Shown piece by piece: positions 47,901 to 53,900 of a stretch of 64,000 bases of DNA (positions are counted from its first letter, which is position 1; each line of letters begins with the position of its first letter). The position numbers were made by a program. This DNA is from Escherichia coli. GTDB lineage: Bacteria > Pseudomonadota > Gammaproteobacteria > Enterobacterales > Enterobacteriaceae. Location of the stretch: assembly GCF_030384885.1 (NCBI RefSeq), contig NZ_CP128613.1, one strand, 5' to 3'.

Positions 47901-50900
47901 GGAGGTTAAAACTCAGCGTTGAGTGGGATAAATAGCGATATAGACGTAACCACAGGAACCCAGCGTATCGGCTTCGCAGGTTAGTCCTTTGGCGTATAGC
48001 GTGACGGTACGTTGTTGGCAGGGGGAGAGTTCACCGTCAGCCAGTTTCAGCTCCAGTTGTTTCATCAACACCGGAAAAGCCTGGTCGATATGCAGCAGAT
48101 CCGGGGAGCTGAATTTCCCGGTAATTGCGGCCCGATCAGCCAGGTAATGCAGGTTATGTCTTTCCTGTACCAGTCGAGCAGTGAAGCGTGGTGTTACGGT
48201 ACAGGGAAGCCCCCATTCTTGTTGCATGACCTTGTCCTTTTGCAGCATTACAGCCAGCCCCGTTCGGCAAAAGAGAGGACATCCCCCGCCCCAATAATGA
48301 AATGATCCAGCACCCTCACTTTCACCAAATCCAGTGTCTTAACAATATTCGTTGTAATAAGTCTGTCGGCCCGACTGGGTTCCCTATGAGGTTGTCACGC
48401 ACACCACAGAATTCCTGCGCGAAGGCATCAAACGGGAGAAATTAAGCGACGCACAAATCCGCGAACTGGAAGAACAAGGCATAGATCCCAATACGCTGGA
48501 GTTTGATGGTAAGGCGCTGGATGAGGCGATCTACAACAAAGACACCAACCGCTATATCCTGCGTAACCTGATGGAAAATGGCCTGAAAGATCGGGACGGC
48601 CAGTTGCCTGGTAAAACCATCATTTTCGCCCGTAACCACAAACACGCGCTGCTGTTGAATGAATTGTTCGACGATATGTACCCGGAAGGGATTGATGCTG
48701 GCGTTGATTTTAAAGATCGCACGCAGGCGGCGTTTGTTGTACCAAAAGAAGATATTGCTGCGCAGAAATACGACCTCTCTATTAATCGTTATAAAGAAGT
48801 GGTGTATCAGGCTGAGGAGTATGAAGATCCGAAAGTGATACTGAAGCGGTTAAAAGATCTGGAAAATGAGATTCTGGCGGATCTGAATGAGCTGGAGGGA
48901 ATGCTGTGAGTTGGCCGTTAGGAAAAGTTTCCGATATTGCTGCTGTTATATCCGGTTTTGCTTTTAAAAGCGAATGGTTTGGTACAGGAGACGCAAAGGT
49001 TATCCGAATTGGCGATCTTAAGAACGGAAAAATCGATCTTAGTGATGCAATGATCTTTGATCATAAAACTAATAAAGTTCGCGAACAATTTAGAATCAAA
49101 AGCGGCGATATTTTAATGGCTCTTTCTGGCGCAACTGTTGGGAAGATCGCAGTTGCTGATGCTGAAGCTGAAGGTGCATATCTTAATCAACGAGTAGCAG
49201 TGATTCGAGGGCGAAATCATGAAAATGCAGAATATTTAAAATACGTATTTTCAGGACACCCTCTCCAAAAACTACTCCTAAATGCAGGTGGTGCGGCACA
49301 GCCAAATCTTAGCTCTAAAGACTTGGCAGAGATGGAAATACCTATTCCCCCTCTTACCGAACAAAAAAGAATCTCAACCATACTTGATAAAGTAAATGGC
49401 ATACGTCAAAAGCGCGAGCAAGCCATAAAGCTGGCTGATAATTTTTTGCATACCATTTTTCATGAGATGTTTGGCGATCCTGTTAAAAACCCGAAGGGAT
49501 GGGATGTCGCCTCTTTATTAGAATATGGTTCATTCAAAAATGGAATGAATTTTTCAAAAGGTGAATTGGGATCTGCTTTGAAGTGCCTAGGAGTTGGTGA
49601 TTTCAAATCACTGGCAACGATTACCTGTATGGACAATATCGGTGAAATTGAATTAAATACTCTTCCTTCGGATGATTATCTTTTGAAAGATGGTGATATT
49701 GTCTTTGTCCGTTCTAATGGTAATAAAGCCTTGGTCGGAAGATGTCTTACTATTTATCCAAACAAAGAGAAAGTCACATTTAGTGGGTTTTGCATTCGAT
49801 ACAGAATAAAAAATCCTGCAATCACGCCAGAATATCTCAACTTCCTTTTCCGTACACCGTCAATGAAACAGCAAATGTTGAGCGGGGGCCAAGGGGCTAA
49901 TATTCAGAATATTAGCCAAGGTACCTTATCTGCACTCAGGATACCTGTACCTCCATTGGATAAACAACTTGCTTTTGCCAGATTGGTTGATTTCCATGCA
50001 TCTATTGTGAAAAAACAATATGATAAAATGGCTGAATCCGAAAAACTCTTCAATGCCTTGACTGGTGATTTTTTCACATTTAATGAGTGATGGTTTATAG
50101 GATAACTCATTCATTACAAAATTTATTAAATACATAGAGGGGCAAATGGGTACATATATCTCAGATAAAACAGAAACATGTTTTGATGAATATTCTTTAA
50201 TCGAAAAAGTCGGGGATGGCTATAAGATTAGTGTGTACTCATTTAAGCTTCATACAGGAAATCCTTACCAGCCACATATATCAGAAAGTTATAGTGGTGA
50301 TATTTTTATTAGCTATTTGTACTATGGAAATGATTCTTATTACGAGCGCAGACGTCAGGAATACAGAAAATATTTATCATTAAAAGAAATCCACCTTGCT
50401 ATTCTAAAGATGTTTCCAGATGAGCGAAGAATTGCGATAGGTATAAAAAAAGAAAATTACAGTACCGTAAAAATAACTTATGCGGCAGCGGATGAAGTAT
50501 ATCTTCTTGATATTAAAAATAAAGAGACATTATTGTTAGATAATATATTATGTCTATATGATGTTATTTATAAGCATGAAAGCAACATTAATAAATTGGA
50601 AGGCGAGTTAGCAAGTAGTAAAAAAGAACTCCAAAGTATGAAGATAGATATAAAAGAAAAATGTAAATCTATTCTTGATATTGTTGATTAGTAAAAACAA
50701 CCCCAGTGGCAATAATTCATTGATATGGAACTCTTCTAATGGCTGAAATATTTTCTTTGCGTTATGATGTTTTGTTCTACAGCCTTGAGATTTCACGTCA
50801 GGAAAGTAACCATGCCTTTAGATTTAAGTAATACTTTAGTTATTGGCATTAGCGCAACTGCGCTTTTTGACATGAGCGAATCGGATCGCATGTTTCGGGA

Positions 50901-53900
50901 AACCTATGCGACCGATCCGGATAGTGCCATTGAGAAGTATCGTGCTTATATGCTGGAACACGAAAACCAGCCTTTACAGCCCGGAACAGGCTACCCCTTA
51001 GTCAAAGCGTTGCTGGGGCTGAACCGGTACCGCCAGCCGGATGATAAATCGCCGTTGGTTGAGGTTGTTGTGATGTCGCGCAACAGTCCTGATACCGGTA
51101 TCCGCGTTTTGAATACCATTCGCCATGACAAACTCGATATTACACGTTCAGCTTTTACCGCAGGTGAAACCGTTGCCGATTACCTTGATGCCTTTGATGT
51201 GGATCTGTTTTTAACAACCAACGTTGAAGATGCGCAAAAGGTGATTGATTCCCGATTCTGCGCCGCTGCAATCCTGAAAGATCCGCCTTCTGACGCATCT
51301 GATATCCCGGAAGGGCAAGTGCGCATTGCTTTTGACGGCGACGCGGTACTTTTTTCCGATCAAAGCGAACTGGTTTATAAGACCCAAGGAATGGCTGCCT
51401 TTCATGCTCAGGAAGACGCGCAGCAGGATATCCCTATGGAAGAGGGGCCTTATGCCACTTTGCTAAAAAAAATAGCCAAGCTTCAGGAACGATTGCCGAC
51501 CCGCGTTGAGTATTCTCCTGTTCGTATTGCGCTGGTGACAGCCCGAAATAGCCCTTCGGAAATGCGCGTTATTAAAACGCTAAGAAGCTGGGGGGTATAT
51601 GTCGATGAAGCTTTTTTTCTTGGCGGTGTAGAGAAAACAAAAGTTCTGAAGGCGTTTAGGCCACACATTTTCTTTGACGATCAGGATGTGCATTTGATCG
51701 CGGCTGCAAAGGTAGTACCTTCTGGTAAAGTACCTTATGCCAGTAACTCCGAACTGGCAGAACGTGAAGCATCGTAATTATCGCTAACAAACCATTTAGT
51801 CATTAAGGCTGGATGGTTTGTATACCACACGCAAAATAACTGCCCTCCCCCAGATCAATGCTCTCCTCTGAACACCTCTTTTCTGTGCCATTCCACAAAC
51901 CGCTCGCCAGGATAATTTTCTTTAACCGGTGGCAACGCAATCGCCTTTCCTGCAAAATCCCAGAACAGCCGCTGTACCACCCCACCGCCATTTACCGCGC
52001 CGGAAACCACCACACGCATATTTTCATCCAAACCAATCGAACCACGATCAAACGCTTTATGATGGATGGCGCACAATGCCAGGCCATTAGGTACTTCACA
52101 AGGGCCATGGTGCTGCTTCCATCTGATATGAGCGGCTTCCAGAGCAATCGGCGCATTGTCGTGGCGCATGTTAAAGCCGCAGATAGCGCACTGATAATTG
52201 TAAGCACGTAGCACCATCTGACGGAACTACGGATCGCGTTGACGGAGAGAGGTGCGAATATCAAAACCCATCTCGTCAGCTATCTCTTCCTGAATACTGG
52301 CCGGGAAATGCGCCTCCAGGAGCTGCTGCGCCAGCGTATCAATTAACCTGTGATTTTTTGCCACCAAAGCAAAATTATCGGCATCAAATCCACCAGCAAC
52401 ATTATATTCAATGAGTTCACGTCGGGGCGGCTGGCGGCTACCACTGGTTGAGCACAGTTCCGCGTTATGTAGTTCCCAGAAGCCATCGCCCTTCAGACGC
52501 CAGAACGGCATGTCCGGGCGCTGGTCACGGCGCTGCGGTCCATAACGTTCCAGTAGATCCAACAGGGGCTCGTAGATTTCAGAACCATAGTTAAACAGGC
52601 GACCATGACCCTGCCGATAGTGTGAGAGAACGTACAGCAGCAATAATGGCTTATGTGGCGCACGTTGTTCGCCTTTGCGCCAGATGGTGATATTTGATAT
52701 CGCTTGTTTTAGGGTTTTGTCAGAGGTCATTGCGTTGGAGAATCCATGAGCACATATTTGCGATGATGCTCGCAACTATATGTACATTCAAGGCATTATT
52801 GCAGACATCCTTTTTCTCTGGCGGTTCTGTACCTGGCAGATAGAATTCTGATAACAACGGTAAAAAATACAGCGACCAACCAGTCCTAAGCGGGCTGGTT
52901 GGTCTTTTAAATTTAAACATCAGCCGAGGAATAACGGCATTCAACTCACTCGCCATTCCCCCGGTTGATCTTCGCATAGTCAAACGGCGTAATCGCTCTT
53001 TCCCGATTGGCATCCAGAAAATCAGCCCACCACTGTAACATCAGCTTGCGCTCATCCAGATGTTCCGCTTTATGGATATACGCCGCCCTCACCGAATTGC
53101 GTTCCATATGGCTCATCTGGCGCTCCACCGCATCCTTCGACCATAGCCCTGACTCAATTAACGAACTACAGGCCATTGTACGGAAGCCGTGGCCGCAAAC
53201 TTCAACCTTAGTGTCATAACCCATCACCCGTAGCGCACTGTTTACCGTGTTCTCGCTCATGGGCTTACGCGGATCGTGATCGCCAATAAAAATCAGCTCA
53301 TGTTCGCCACAGAACTGTTTTATCTGCTTCAGGATCGCCAGCGCCTGCTTTGAAAGCGGCACCAGATGAGGTGTGCGCATCTTTGAACCTCGCTGAGAAT
53401 GTTTCACGCCGGGAATCGGTTCTCGCTCAGGCGGGATGGTCCACATTGATGTTTCAAAATCGATCTCTGACCAGCGAGCAAAACGCAGCTCACTGGATCG
53501 AATAAAAATAAGCAGAGTAAGTTCGGTTGCCCAGCGGGTTAGCGGCCTGCCGGTATAGCCGTCTATTTTCTCAAGCAACTCAGGGATGCGCTTTAACTCC
53601 AGCGCCGGACGATGCTGTCGATTACTGGAAGCAACCGCCCCTGCCATCTCTTGCGCCGGATTGTAATCAATTAACCCGCTTTGCACTGCATAACGCATGA
53701 TGGCCGTGGTGCGCTGTTGAAGGCGGGAAGCCACCTCAAGACGTCCGGATTTCTCCACGGCTTTAATAGGAATTAACAGATCGCGGGTGCCCAGTTCAGC
53801 AATATTGTGGGAACCAATTGCCGGGAAGATATTGTCCTCCAGGCTCTTTTTTACACGATTAGCATGATCTTCCGACCATTTTTGGTTGGTTACGAGCCAC

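What the first reader, a model, noticed from the sequence alone, without database searches (positions are those of the whole stretch)
50146..51777. Two-gene cassette in the leuX island: unknown 181-aa protein plus a 5'-nucleotidase-like enzyme, a candidate undescribed defence or nucleotide-depletion module
Two co-directional genes sit inside an integrase-bearing island, between an orphan hsdS and an HNH nuclease gene and near two toxin-antitoxin pairs. The first (50146-50691) is AT-rich and has no domain I recognise. The second (50812-51777) has HAD-like motifs that I recall as the cytosolic 5'-nucleotidase family. I know of no described antiphage system built on a cN-I-type nucleotidase, although nucleotide-degrading effectors are a recurring defence theme. 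The defence role is an inference from context only.
Basis: inference. Interest (0 to 1): 0.7.

Follow-up and report, generated by a model that had tools for sequence, protein, structure and literature searches.

The report
Restriction-linked nucleotidase beside unrelated orphan gene
The two genes are real but are not a paired system: the second is a very conserved nucleotide phosphatase already listed as an untested phage-defence candidate that travels with restriction-modification systems, and the first is a rare orphan gene sitting in a swap-in slot next to it.

Summary
Both ORFs exist at the stated coordinates. The second (50812-51777) is a full-length PF06189 5'-nucleotidase with all HAD catalytic motifs intact. 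It is not undescribed: it matches PADLOC candidate PDC-S08 (E 5.6e-134), one of 145 explicitly untested "guilt-by-embedding" candidates. The first (50146-50691) is a genuine but orphan gene (dN/dS 0.21-0.34), with no match in any family or fold library searched.

The two-gene-cassette reading fails.
- Among 5,426 complete E. coli genomes the nucleotidase is in 71 and the 181-aa gene in 2.
- None of 80 species-level nucleotidase loci carries a 181-aa homologue.
- In the one small enterobacterial clade that has both genes, each decays on its own. The nucleotidase is broken in three lineages where the 181-aa gene is intact. The 181-aa gene is truncated in one lineage where the nucleotidase is intact.

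The recurrent partner of the nucleotidase is restriction-modification. It is operonic with type I or type III RM in four different gene orders across three phyla. In E. coli the gap between hsdS and the nucleotidase is a variable slot holding Dsr1, a SIR2 protein, assorted unknowns, or this 181-aa gene. In this window the RM system and the neighbouring phosphorothioate-dependent nuclease are both dead.

Interest is moderate to low: the candidate is known, and its function is untested.

The parts
50146..50691 (+). 181-aa orphan protein gene. Predicted N-terminal beta-rich domain with conserved motif Y-x-x-Y-G-x-x-S-x-x-E-R-R, plus a ~60-residue C-terminal coiled coil. It is cargo in the variable slot between hsdS and the nucleotidase.
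   Evidence: ORF and RBS. Nine homologues among 5.8e9 proteins, and six in an exhaustive profile search. dN/dS 0.21-0.34. No Pfam, PADLOC, NCBIfam or PHROG hit. AF2 pLDDT 67 and 74.5, with no fold match.
50692..50811 (.). Intergenic spacer. Its right end (~50800-50812) is the point where homology to other E. coli islands begins, so it is the right-hand border of the variable slot.
   Evidence: Megablast hits in other E. coli start at query 892-913, which is window 50791-50812. Alignment of the junctions. No terminator-like site.
50812..51777 (+). PF06189 (cN-I type) HAD-superfamily 5'-nucleotidase, equal to PADLOC phage-defence candidate PDC-S08. Catalytic motifs are intact: D175-x-D177, T243, K275/K277, D289-D290.
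   Evidence: Pfam E 4.6e-119, full length. PADLOC E 5.6e-134. Invariant motif columns. dN/dS 0.02-0.035.
48906..50090 (+). hsdS, the type I RM specificity subunit. It is intact but orphaned.
   Evidence: PADLOC Specificity_I E 3e-164. RefSeq annotation in L001.
48378..48909 (+). Remnant of the type I RM operon: an internal hsdR fragment fused to the last ~230 nt of hsdM. Relative to strain 2013C-4282 this is a 2,945-bp deletion with a 7-bp overlap at 48678-48684.
   Evidence: blastn of the window against L001. Megablast.
51855..52730 (-). Phosphorothioated-DNA-binding restriction endonuclease (SBD + HNH, ScoMcrA-like), a pseudogene with one in-frame stop at codon 168. It is convergent with the nucleotidase.
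   Evidence: NCBIfam NF045808 hits on both halves. Translation. RefSeq note 'internal stop'.
52946..54214 (-). Tyrosine integrase of the island.
   Evidence: RefSeq annotation transferred from L001. NCBIfam integrase domain.
54415..54499 (-). tRNA-Leu(CAA), leuX, the integration site.
   Evidence: ARAGORN.

Best explanation
The two genes are independent modules at the integrase-proximal end of a leuX defence island. The conserved backbone of that island is hsdR-hsdM-hsdS - [variable slot] - nucleotidase - (PT-dependent nuclease) - integrase - tRNA-Leu.

The nucleotidase. It is a catalytically competent cN-I-type HAD phosphatase and the terminal gene of an RM-linked module (PADLOC PDC-S08). It is not a partner of the 181-aa protein. 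Inferred mechanism: it removes the 5'-phosphate from (deoxy)nucleoside monophosphates. In E. coli, de novo dNTP synthesis goes NDP to dNDP to dNTP, so apart from the dUMP/dTMP branch the host does not route its supply through dNMPs. Many lytic phages, by contrast, rebuild dNTPs from dNMPs released when DNA is degraded. A dNMP phosphatase placed beside an ATP-dependent restriction system would therefore make degraded DNA unrecoverable for the phage at little cost to the cell.

What is shown and what is inferred. Shown: family membership, intact motifs, extreme purifying selection, and repeated operonic linkage to type I and type III RM. Inferred: the substrate, any anti-phage effect, and any cooperation with RM.

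The 181-aa protein. It is one of many alternative cargo genes in the hsdS-nucleotidase slot. It is a fast-evolving, probably oligomeric (coiled-coil), non-enzymatic protein. Its most likely role is an independent conflict-related accessory, either defence or modulation of the adjacent RM. This rests on position only.

State in this window. hsdR/hsdM and the PT-dependent nuclease are inactivated, so only hsdS, the 181-aa gene and the nucleotidase remain intact.
For: Identity:
- Pfam PF06189, full length, and PADLOC PDC-S08.
- HAD motifs are invariant across 9 genera.

Not a pair:
- The nucleotidase is in 71 and the 181-aa gene in 2 of 5,426 E. coli genomes.
- No 181-aa homologue appears in 80 species loci.
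- The homology break lies exactly at the nucleotidase start.
- Decay is independent. The nucleotidase is frameshifted in the E. coli FLI21/L009 lineage, internally deleted in Salmonella L007, and reduced to 45 codons in Arsenophonus L005, all with an intact 181-aa gene. In P. polaris L104 the 181-aa gene is truncated while the nucleotidase is intact.

Variable slot:
- In other E. coli the slot holds Dsr1 plus a hypothetical (L003), a SIR2 PDC-S25 protein plus IS3 (L004), 582+88 aa (L102), 144+274+115 aa (L002), or a helicase plus 421 aa (L103).

RM linkage in four gene orders and three phyla:
- hsdRMS-nuc with a 22-28 bp gap (L024, L026, L032).
- nuc-hsdM-hsdS with a 4-26 bp gap (L083, L085).
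- mod-res-nuc (L043, L062).
- nuc-mod-res with a 2 bp gap (L089, L090, L099).

Other support:
- Other defence neighbours include Zorya, DRT9, a Mokosh-like helicase, SspA, PD-T4-2 and ABC ATPases.
- PDCs were defined by embedding in RM/BREX/DISARM loci.
- Nucleotidase dN/dS is 0.02-0.035. It is 79-83% identical where hsdM is 53-61% and hsdR 40-53%.
Against: - No experiment shows that PDC-S08 protects against phage. The source paper calls all 145 PDCs untested, and one strain-panel survey saw a 50/50 split between phage-resistant and phage-susceptible P. aeruginosa.
- More distant homologues (52-68% identity) sit among housekeeping genes such as DnaX, Tgt, RsmB, DhaK and RmuC.
- Near-housekeeping conservation is atypical for immune genes. 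The family may simply be a metabolic enzyme that hitch-hikes.
- Substrate specificity is unknown. No bacterial PF06189 enzyme appears in a 2021 review of microbial nucleotidases, and no relative has a solved structure detectable by sequence.
- For the 181-aa protein there is no positive functional evidence at all.
Confidence: 0.72

Rival explanations
1. One reading: the 181-aa protein and the nucleotidase form one two-gene defence system, for example a sensor or regulator plus a nucleotide-depleting effector.
For: - The genes are on the same strand, 120 bp apart, with no terminator-like site between them.
- The order hsdS-181-nuc is kept in E. coli, Salmonella and Pectobacterium, with a remnant in Arsenophonus.
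Against: - All co-occurrences trace to one small clade with near-identical hsdR/hsdM (93-99%), so they represent a single acquisition.
- The nucleotidase lacks the partner in at least 69 of 71 E. coli genomes and in 80 of 80 species loci.
- Each gene survives the loss of the other.
- Protein evolutionary rates differ tenfold at equal dS.
Confidence: 0.04
2. The nucleotidase is an ordinary nucleotide-pool housekeeping enzyme with no immune role. It hitch-hikes at the edge of mobile islands and RM operons, or gives the island a metabolic benefit such as phosphate or nucleoside salvage.
For: - dN/dS is 0.02-0.035, and identity is 70-85% across proteobacterial classes and Bacillota, and 52-58% to Bacteroidota.
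- Distant members are flanked by DnaX, Tgt, RsmB, DhaK, PssA and TspO.
- The gene is readily lost in three lineages.
Against: - Operonic adjacency (2-130 bp, same strand) to type I and type III RM in four distinct gene orders across three phyla is hard to explain by hitch-hiking.
- 14 of 20 tested neighbours of the close homologues hit defence models.
Confidence: 0.3
3. The nucleotidase is a specific accessory of m6A-type ATP-dependent RM systems. It sanitises modified or phage-specific dNMPs (m6-dAMP from degraded methylated DNA, hm-dCMP, dUMP and similar). This would stop them being re-incorporated, where they could protect phage DNA from restriction or blur the self mark.
For: - The RM partners found, type I HsdM and type III Mod, are by established knowledge N6-adenine methyltransferases.
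- m6-dAMP is released during phage-induced chromosome degradation and is immunologically relevant in E. coli (PMC12871103).
- YjjG is a precedent for a HAD nucleotidase that clears non-canonical nucleotides (cited in PMC12715507).
Against: - There are no substrate data.
- The family also occurs next to Zorya, DRT9 and SIR2 without RM, and in housekeeping contexts.
- The hypothesis is pure inference.
Confidence: 0.12
4. The 181-aa protein is a dedicated fourth subunit or regulator of the adjacent type I RM. It might control restriction alleviation or sense anti-restriction proteins. On this reading it is not free-standing cargo.
For: - It always starts 55-58 bp after the hsdS stop in every context recovered, across 4 genera.
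- No terminator-like site lies between the two genes.
- A coiled coil suggests protein-protein interaction.
Against: - All instances descend from one arrangement, so the constant spacing is inheritance, not convergence.
- The same RM family (hsdR/M 99% identical) works with entirely different slot contents or none.
- The gene persists intact in this window and in FLI21 although hsdR/hsdM are destroyed.
- Distant homologues lie after a phage methyltransferase-domain gene or after ribF, with no consistent partner.
Confidence: 0.15

Closest known systems
PADLOC phage defence candidate PDC-S08 (Payne et al., bioRxiv 10.1101/2024.01.29.577857)
   Same: The nucleotidase matches the PDC-S08 HMM over its full length (E 5.6e-134). 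It also sits where PDCs were defined, in or next to a type I RM locus.
   Different: PDC-S08 is only a bioinformatic candidate, and no phenotype or mechanism is published. In this window the RM it accompanies is deleted.
Eukaryotic cytosolic 5'-nucleotidase I (cN-IA/cN-IB, Pfam PF06189)
   Same: Same Pfam family, matched end to end. HAD motifs I-IV are present.
   Different: This is a bacterial, island-borne copy linked to RM. Its substrate range and regulation are unknown, whereas cN-IA acts on AMP and dNMPs and is ADP-activated (from my own knowledge, not tested here). No bacterial member is characterised in the 2021 review.
Validated HAD-phosphatase defence effectors: CARF-HAD Chp (PMC12715507), PUA-Calcineurin-HAD (PMC12871103), DS-9 (PMC13092281)
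   Same: They use HAD-superfamily phosphatase chemistry on nucleotides within anti-phage systems. Nucleotide-pool depletion is the proposed logic.
   Different: - They belong to different HAD families.
- They act on (d)NTPs and are switched on by a sensor (cA4, m6-dAMP).
- The protein here is a stand-alone cN-I-type enzyme with no identified sensor, expected to act on monophosphates.
- None of them matched it in PADLOC.
Defence genes embedded in type I RM loci (e.g. PrrC) and variable defence hotspots of E. coli islands (PMC10121019)
   Same: The hsdS-nucleotidase gap behaves as such a hotspot. It carries Dsr1, a SIR2 PDC-S25 protein or unknown genes in different strains.
   Different: The 181-aa occupant matches no known or candidate defence family and has no recognisable effector domain.

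Membership tests
Pfam PF06189 5'-nucleotidase (cN-I type) | Full-length match to the family HMM above threshold | tested here: met
   i-Evalue 4.6e-119, residues 1-312 against model positions 1-300 of 302.
Pfam PF06189 5'-nucleotidase (cN-I type) | HAD catalytic motifs: I DxDx[TV], II T/S, III K, IV DD | tested here: met
   FDGDAV (D175, D177), VTARN (T243), K275/K277 and FFDDQD (D289, D290) are invariant in 9 genera. Assigning these residues to the motifs is by inspection.
Pfam PF06189 5'-nucleotidase (cN-I type) | 5'-nucleotidase activity on (d)NMPs | not testable with these tools
   Needs an enzyme assay. No characterised bacterial member was found.
Pfam PF06189 5'-nucleotidase (cN-I type) | HAD Rossmannoid core with cap domain in the 3D structure | not tested
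No PDB relative is detectable by sequence.
PADLOC PDC-S08 candidate | Match to the PDC-S08 HMM | tested here: met
   PDLC04900, E 5.6e-134, residues 1-316 of 321.
PADLOC PDC-S08 candidate | Genetic embedding in or adjacency to BREX, DISARM or type I RM | tested here: met
   It lies downstream of hsdS here and in L001-L010. It is directly operonic with RM in L024, L026, L032, L083, L085, L043, L062, L089, L090 and L099.
PADLOC PDC-S08 candidate | Protection against phage | not testable with these tools
   Declared untested by its authors. No validating paper was found.
Two-gene defence system (181-aa + nucleotidase) | Conserved co-occurrence of both genes across genomes | tested here: not met
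   2 versus 71 of 5,426 E. coli genomes. 0 of 80 species loci.
Two-gene defence system (181-aa + nucleotidase) | Joint retention or loss (mutual dependence) | tested here: not met
   The nucleotidase is broken in 3 lineages with an intact 181-aa gene. The reverse holds in P. polaris.
Two-gene defence system (181-aa + nucleotidase) | Co-directional, closely spaced genes | tested here: met
   Same strand, 120-bp gap, no terminator-like site.
Type I RM accessory subunit (181-aa protein) | Association with hsdS in independent lineages or RM families | tested here: inconclusive
   It is always 55-58 bp after hsdS, but only within one recently spread RM element with hsdR/M 93-99% identical. Distant homologues have other neighbours.

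The most novel reading that the evidence does not exclude
A mobile subclade of an otherwise housekeeping cN-I-type nucleotidase has been recruited repeatedly, in at least four gene orders and three phyla, as an accessory of m6A-type ATP-dependent restriction systems (types I and III). It would act at the monophosphate level. One option is that it denies phages the dNMPs released from degraded DNA. The other is that it clears m6-dAMP or other modified dNMPs that would otherwise be re-incorporated and shield phage DNA from restriction. Separately, the 181-aa orphan could be a new single-gene defence or RM-modulating factor with an unrecognised fold.
Probability: 0.2. Interest if true: 0.7.

Novelty: new member of a known kind. 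Interest (0 to 1): 0.35.

Why it matters
If the nucleotidase really cooperates with restriction systems, it would add a monophosphate-level "deny salvage / sanitise the pool" layer to bacterial immunity. Validated nucleotide-depletion systems so far act on (d)NTPs or NAD+. It would also link a human enzyme family (cN-IA) to prokaryotic immunity.

Practically, this work redirects the experiment. The construct to test is RM ± nucleotidase, with each slot gene tested on its own, not the 181-aa + nucleotidase pair. The hsdS-nucleotidase slot is also a ready source of untested candidates, with several unknown cargoes in E. coli W, ZYB39 and EC556.

As it stands, the finding is an instance of a catalogued but untested candidate, placed next to an orphan gene.

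Tried and rejected
For the 181-aa protein, every family and fold search was empty:
- Pfam on the single sequence and on each member of an 8-sequence alignment gave only coiled-coil noise.
- PADLOC, NCBIfam and PHROGs gave nothing beyond coiled-coil matches with E > 1e-3.
- tblastn against 50,697 phage records gave no match.
- An exhaustive profile search of 1.84e9 representatives gave 6 hits, three of them weak.

Ideas considered and dropped:
- That the family follows DNA methyltransferases. 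One prophage homologue lies after a gene with a methyltransferase domain, but two other homologues follow a ribF-like gene.
- My first reading that Arsenophonus has the 181-aa gene with no nucleotidase at all. A 45-codon remnant is present, so the arrangement is ancestral and then decayed.
- Flanking repeats or a mobile-cassette signature around the 181-aa gene. Only short chance repeats were found.
- Promoter and terminator scans. Counts were below shuffle expectation and therefore uninformative.
- A PDB relative of the nucleotidase by sequence or profile. None was found.

Literature searches for experimental validation of PDC-S08, PF06189 or cN-I in defence found none.

Full report
OBSERVATION

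- ORF 50146-50691 (+) encodes 181 aa. It is very AT-rich (GC 29.5%, against 48% for its neighbour) and has an AGAGGGG ribosome-binding site.
- ORF 50812-51777 (+) encodes 321 aa. The alternative ATG at 50764 adds 16 residues that no homologue has.
- RefSeq annotates the same two CDSs, as 'hypothetical protein' and '5'-nucleotidase', in E. coli 2013C-4282. That strain is 100% identical to the window from 48678 to 52000.

The context is a leuX island, as described:
- integrase and tRNA-Leu(CAA);
- an orphan hsdS;
- two toxin-antitoxin pairs;
- a full-length Mokosh type II MkoC further upstream.

The 'HNH nuclease' is the C-terminal half of a phosphorothioated-DNA-binding restriction endonuclease whose reading frame carries one stop at codon 168.

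WHAT THE TWO PROTEINS ARE

The 321-aa protein
- It matches Pfam PF06189 (5'-nucleotidase, the cN-I family) end to end at E 4.6e-119.
- It keeps the HAD signature: D175-x-D177, T243, K275/K277 and D289-D290. These are invariant in an alignment spanning Enterobacterales, Shewanella, Photobacterium, Pseudoalteromonas, Azotobacter, Desulfuromonas and Desulfomicrobium.
- It also matches PADLOC model PDC-S08 at E 5.6e-134.
[quoted passage not shown] The authors state that they are untested.
- I found no paper validating PDC-S08 or any PF06189 protein in defence. One P. aeruginosa panel saw no association with resistance.
- So the nucleotidase call is right, but 'no described system' needs qualifying. 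It is a catalogued candidate without experimental support.

The 181-aa protein
- It has no hit in Pfam, PADLOC, NCBIfam or PHROGs, and none in 50,697 phage genomes.
- The family is tiny: 9 sequences among 5.8 billion clusters, and 6 in an exhaustive profile search.
- Close members occur only in E. coli, Salmonella, Arsenophonus and Pectobacterium.
- Three distant members share the core motif Y-x-x-Y-G-x-x-S-x-x-E-R-R.
- It is a real gene: dN/dS is 0.21-0.34 at dS up to 0.91.
- AlphaFold models show a beta-rich N-terminal domain and a ~60-residue C-terminal coiled coil (pLDDT 67 for the full length and 74.5 for the N-terminal domain). No structural neighbour was found.

ARE THEY A CASSETTE?

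No. Four lines of evidence agree.
- In 5,426 complete E. coli genomes the nucleotidase is found in 71 and the 181-aa gene in 2.
- Homology between this window and other nucleotidase-bearing E. coli starts at window ~50791-50812, essentially at the nucleotidase start codon.
- In a scan of one genome per species, 551 stretches encode a relative of the nucleotidase. None of the 80 best loci contains a 181-aa homologue.
- All loci that carry the 181-aa gene share a nearly identical type I RM (hsdR/hsdM 93-99%) and the order hsdS-181-nuc, which points to one acquisition. Within that clade the two genes decay independently:
  - the nucleotidase is frameshifted in the FLI21/L009 E. coli lineage;
  - it has lost residues 70-282 in Salmonella and is reduced to 45 codons in Arsenophonus, in each case beside an intact 181-aa gene;
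  - in Pectobacterium polaris the 181-aa gene is truncated to 153 aa beside an intact nucleotidase.

At equal synonymous divergence (dS 0.91 versus 0.93), the 181-aa protein accumulates ten times more replacements (dN 0.188 versus 0.019).

WHAT THE LOCUS REALLY IS

In E. coli the conserved frame is hsdR-hsdM-hsdS, then a gap, then the nucleotidase, usually the PT-dependent nuclease, the integrase and tRNA-Leu. In one strain the island sits beside tRNA-Phe instead.

The gap is hypervariable. In different strains it holds:
- Dsr1 plus a 228-aa unknown (L003);
- a SIR2 protein (PDC-S25) plus IS3 (L004);
- 582+88 aa unknowns in E. coli W/LY180 (L102);
- 144+274+115 aa unknowns (L002);
- a helicase plus a 421-aa unknown (L103);
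- or the 181-aa gene.

The 181-aa gene is therefore one cargo among many in a defence hotspot.

In this window the frame itself is damaged. Relative to 2013C-4282, a 2,945-bp deletion fuses an hsdR fragment to the hsdM 3' end. The 5' part of hsdR is replaced by a CbtA/YeeU block.

THE RECURRENT PARTNER OF THE NUCLEOTIDASE

Across the 80 species loci the only recurrent, non-lineage-specific neighbours are RM genes. The nucleotidase is operonic with RM in four gene orders:
- hsdR-hsdM-hsdS-nuc, with a 22-28 bp gap, in Photobacterium, Pseudoalteromonas and an Alteromonadaceae MAG;
- nuc-hsdM-hsdS, with a 4-26 bp gap, in two Flavobacteriia;
- mod-res-nuc (type III) in Alicyclobacillus and Neobacillus;
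- nuc-mod-res, with a 2 bp gap, in three Bacteroidota.

Shewanella and Stutzerimonas have the hsdRMS-slot-nuc form.

Other close homologues abut Zorya ZorCD, DRT9, a Mokosh-like helicase plus SspA, PD-T4-2, ABC-ATPase candidates, or a SIR2 protein plus integrase. Of 20 neighbours tested, 14 hit PADLOC models.

Two facts point the other way.
- Homologues at 52-68% identity sit among DnaX, Tgt, RsmB, DhaK, RmuC/PssA and TspO.
- The protein is under housekeeping-grade constraint: dN/dS 0.02-0.035, and 79-83% identity where hsdM is 53-61%.

The simplest synthesis is an old metabolic enzyme family from which a mobile subclade has been recruited, more than once, to RM operons and defence islands.

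MECHANISM (INFERRED)

As a cN-I-type HAD phosphatase, the enzyme should convert (d)NMPs to nucleosides. In E. coli, de novo dNTP synthesis proceeds at the diphosphate level. Many virulent phages, by contrast, recycle dNMPs from degraded DNA. This is established knowledge and was not tested here.

A dNMP phosphatase beside a DNA-degrading restriction system could therefore deny salvage at low cost to the host. A variant idea is that it clears modified dNMPs such as m6-dAMP. Its RM partners are N6-adenine methyltransferases, and m6-dAMP is now known to be released during phage-induced DNA breakdown.

Validated HAD effectors (Chp, PUA-Cal-HAD, DS-9) show that the chemistry is used in immunity. 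However, they belong to other HAD families, act on triphosphates, and are sensor-gated.

My estimates are:
- ~0.45 that the nucleotidase contributes to phage defence in some way;
- ~0.3 that it is a hitch-hiking metabolic gene;
- ~0.04 that it works with the 181-aa protein.

For the 181-aa protein only position argues for a conflict-related role. A dedicated RM-accessory role is possible but weakly supported (~0.15).

VERDICT

The nucleotidase identification and the defence-island setting are right. The pairing and the 'undescribed' claim are not. The item is a new instance of a known, untested candidate (PDC-S08), next to an orphan cargo gene. Interest is 0.35. The most novel reading still open is an RM-coupled, monophosphate-level nucleotide defence, with probability ~0.2.

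Noticed in passing
window 41129-44644 (-): The 1,171-aa helicase/PLD protein is a full-length Mokosh type II MkoC (PADLOC PDLC03924, 1462 bits). It is a known defence system in the same leuX region.
   Followed up: partly
window 48378-48909: The type I RM operon is destroyed. An internal hsdR fragment (99.7% identical to strain 2013C-4282) is fused with a 7-bp overlap to the last ~230 nt of hsdM, a 2,945-bp deletion. Left of 48378, the 5' part of hsdR is replaced by a CbtA/YeeU/DUF4942 block.
   Followed up: yes
window 51855-52730 (-): The phosphorothioated-DNA-binding restriction endonuclease (SBD+HNH) is a pseudogene with a single in-frame stop at codon 168. The same gene is intact in several other E. 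coli (e.g. LY180, JNE141411). It is more widespread than the nucleotidase: about 180 genomes against 71.
   Followed up: partly
window 44834-44964 and 54334-54460: A ~120-bp direct repeat (~86% identical) covers the integrase-proximal att region plus a degenerate tRNA-Leu 3' fragment. It probably marks the boundary between two islands accreted in tandem at leuX.
   Followed up: partly
L024, L026, L032, L083, L085, L043, L062, L089, L090, L099 (nucleotidase at ~10001 in most): The PF06189 nucleotidase is directly operonic with type I or type III RM in four different gene orders across Gammaproteobacteria, Bacillota and Bacteroidota. Within those loci it is the slowest-evolving gene.
   Followed up: yes
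L102 7852-9859; L002 8232-9940; L103 4783-9482; L003 5344-6030: Other occupants of the hsdS-nucleotidase slot in E. coli W/LY180, ZYB39, EC556 and JNE141411 are hypothetical proteins with no PADLOC match, apart from weak helicase hits. They are further untested defence-hotspot cargo.
   Followed up: partly
L020 8001-8444: A distant homologue of the 181-aa protein (P0011, 28% identity) lies in a prophage. It sits 110 bp downstream of a 471-aa protein with a type II DNA methyltransferase domain and upstream of the terminase, portal and capsid genes. Two other distant homologues (L014, L017) follow a ribF-like gene instead.
   Followed up: partly
L046, L051, L056, L063, L073, L087, L097: Nucleotidase homologues at 52-68% identity are flanked by housekeeping genes (RmuC/PssA, YfcE, DhaK, RsmB/GltP, DnaX, Tgt, HAD/TspO). 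Only part of the family is island-borne.
   Followed up: partly
window 45078-45884 (-): A 268-aa protein has an N-terminal HTH (Xre-type; weak PADLOC hits to HTH_VI, CapH and RmrA) and a long acidic C-terminal region. It sits just inside the att repeat and its function is unknown.
   Followed up: no
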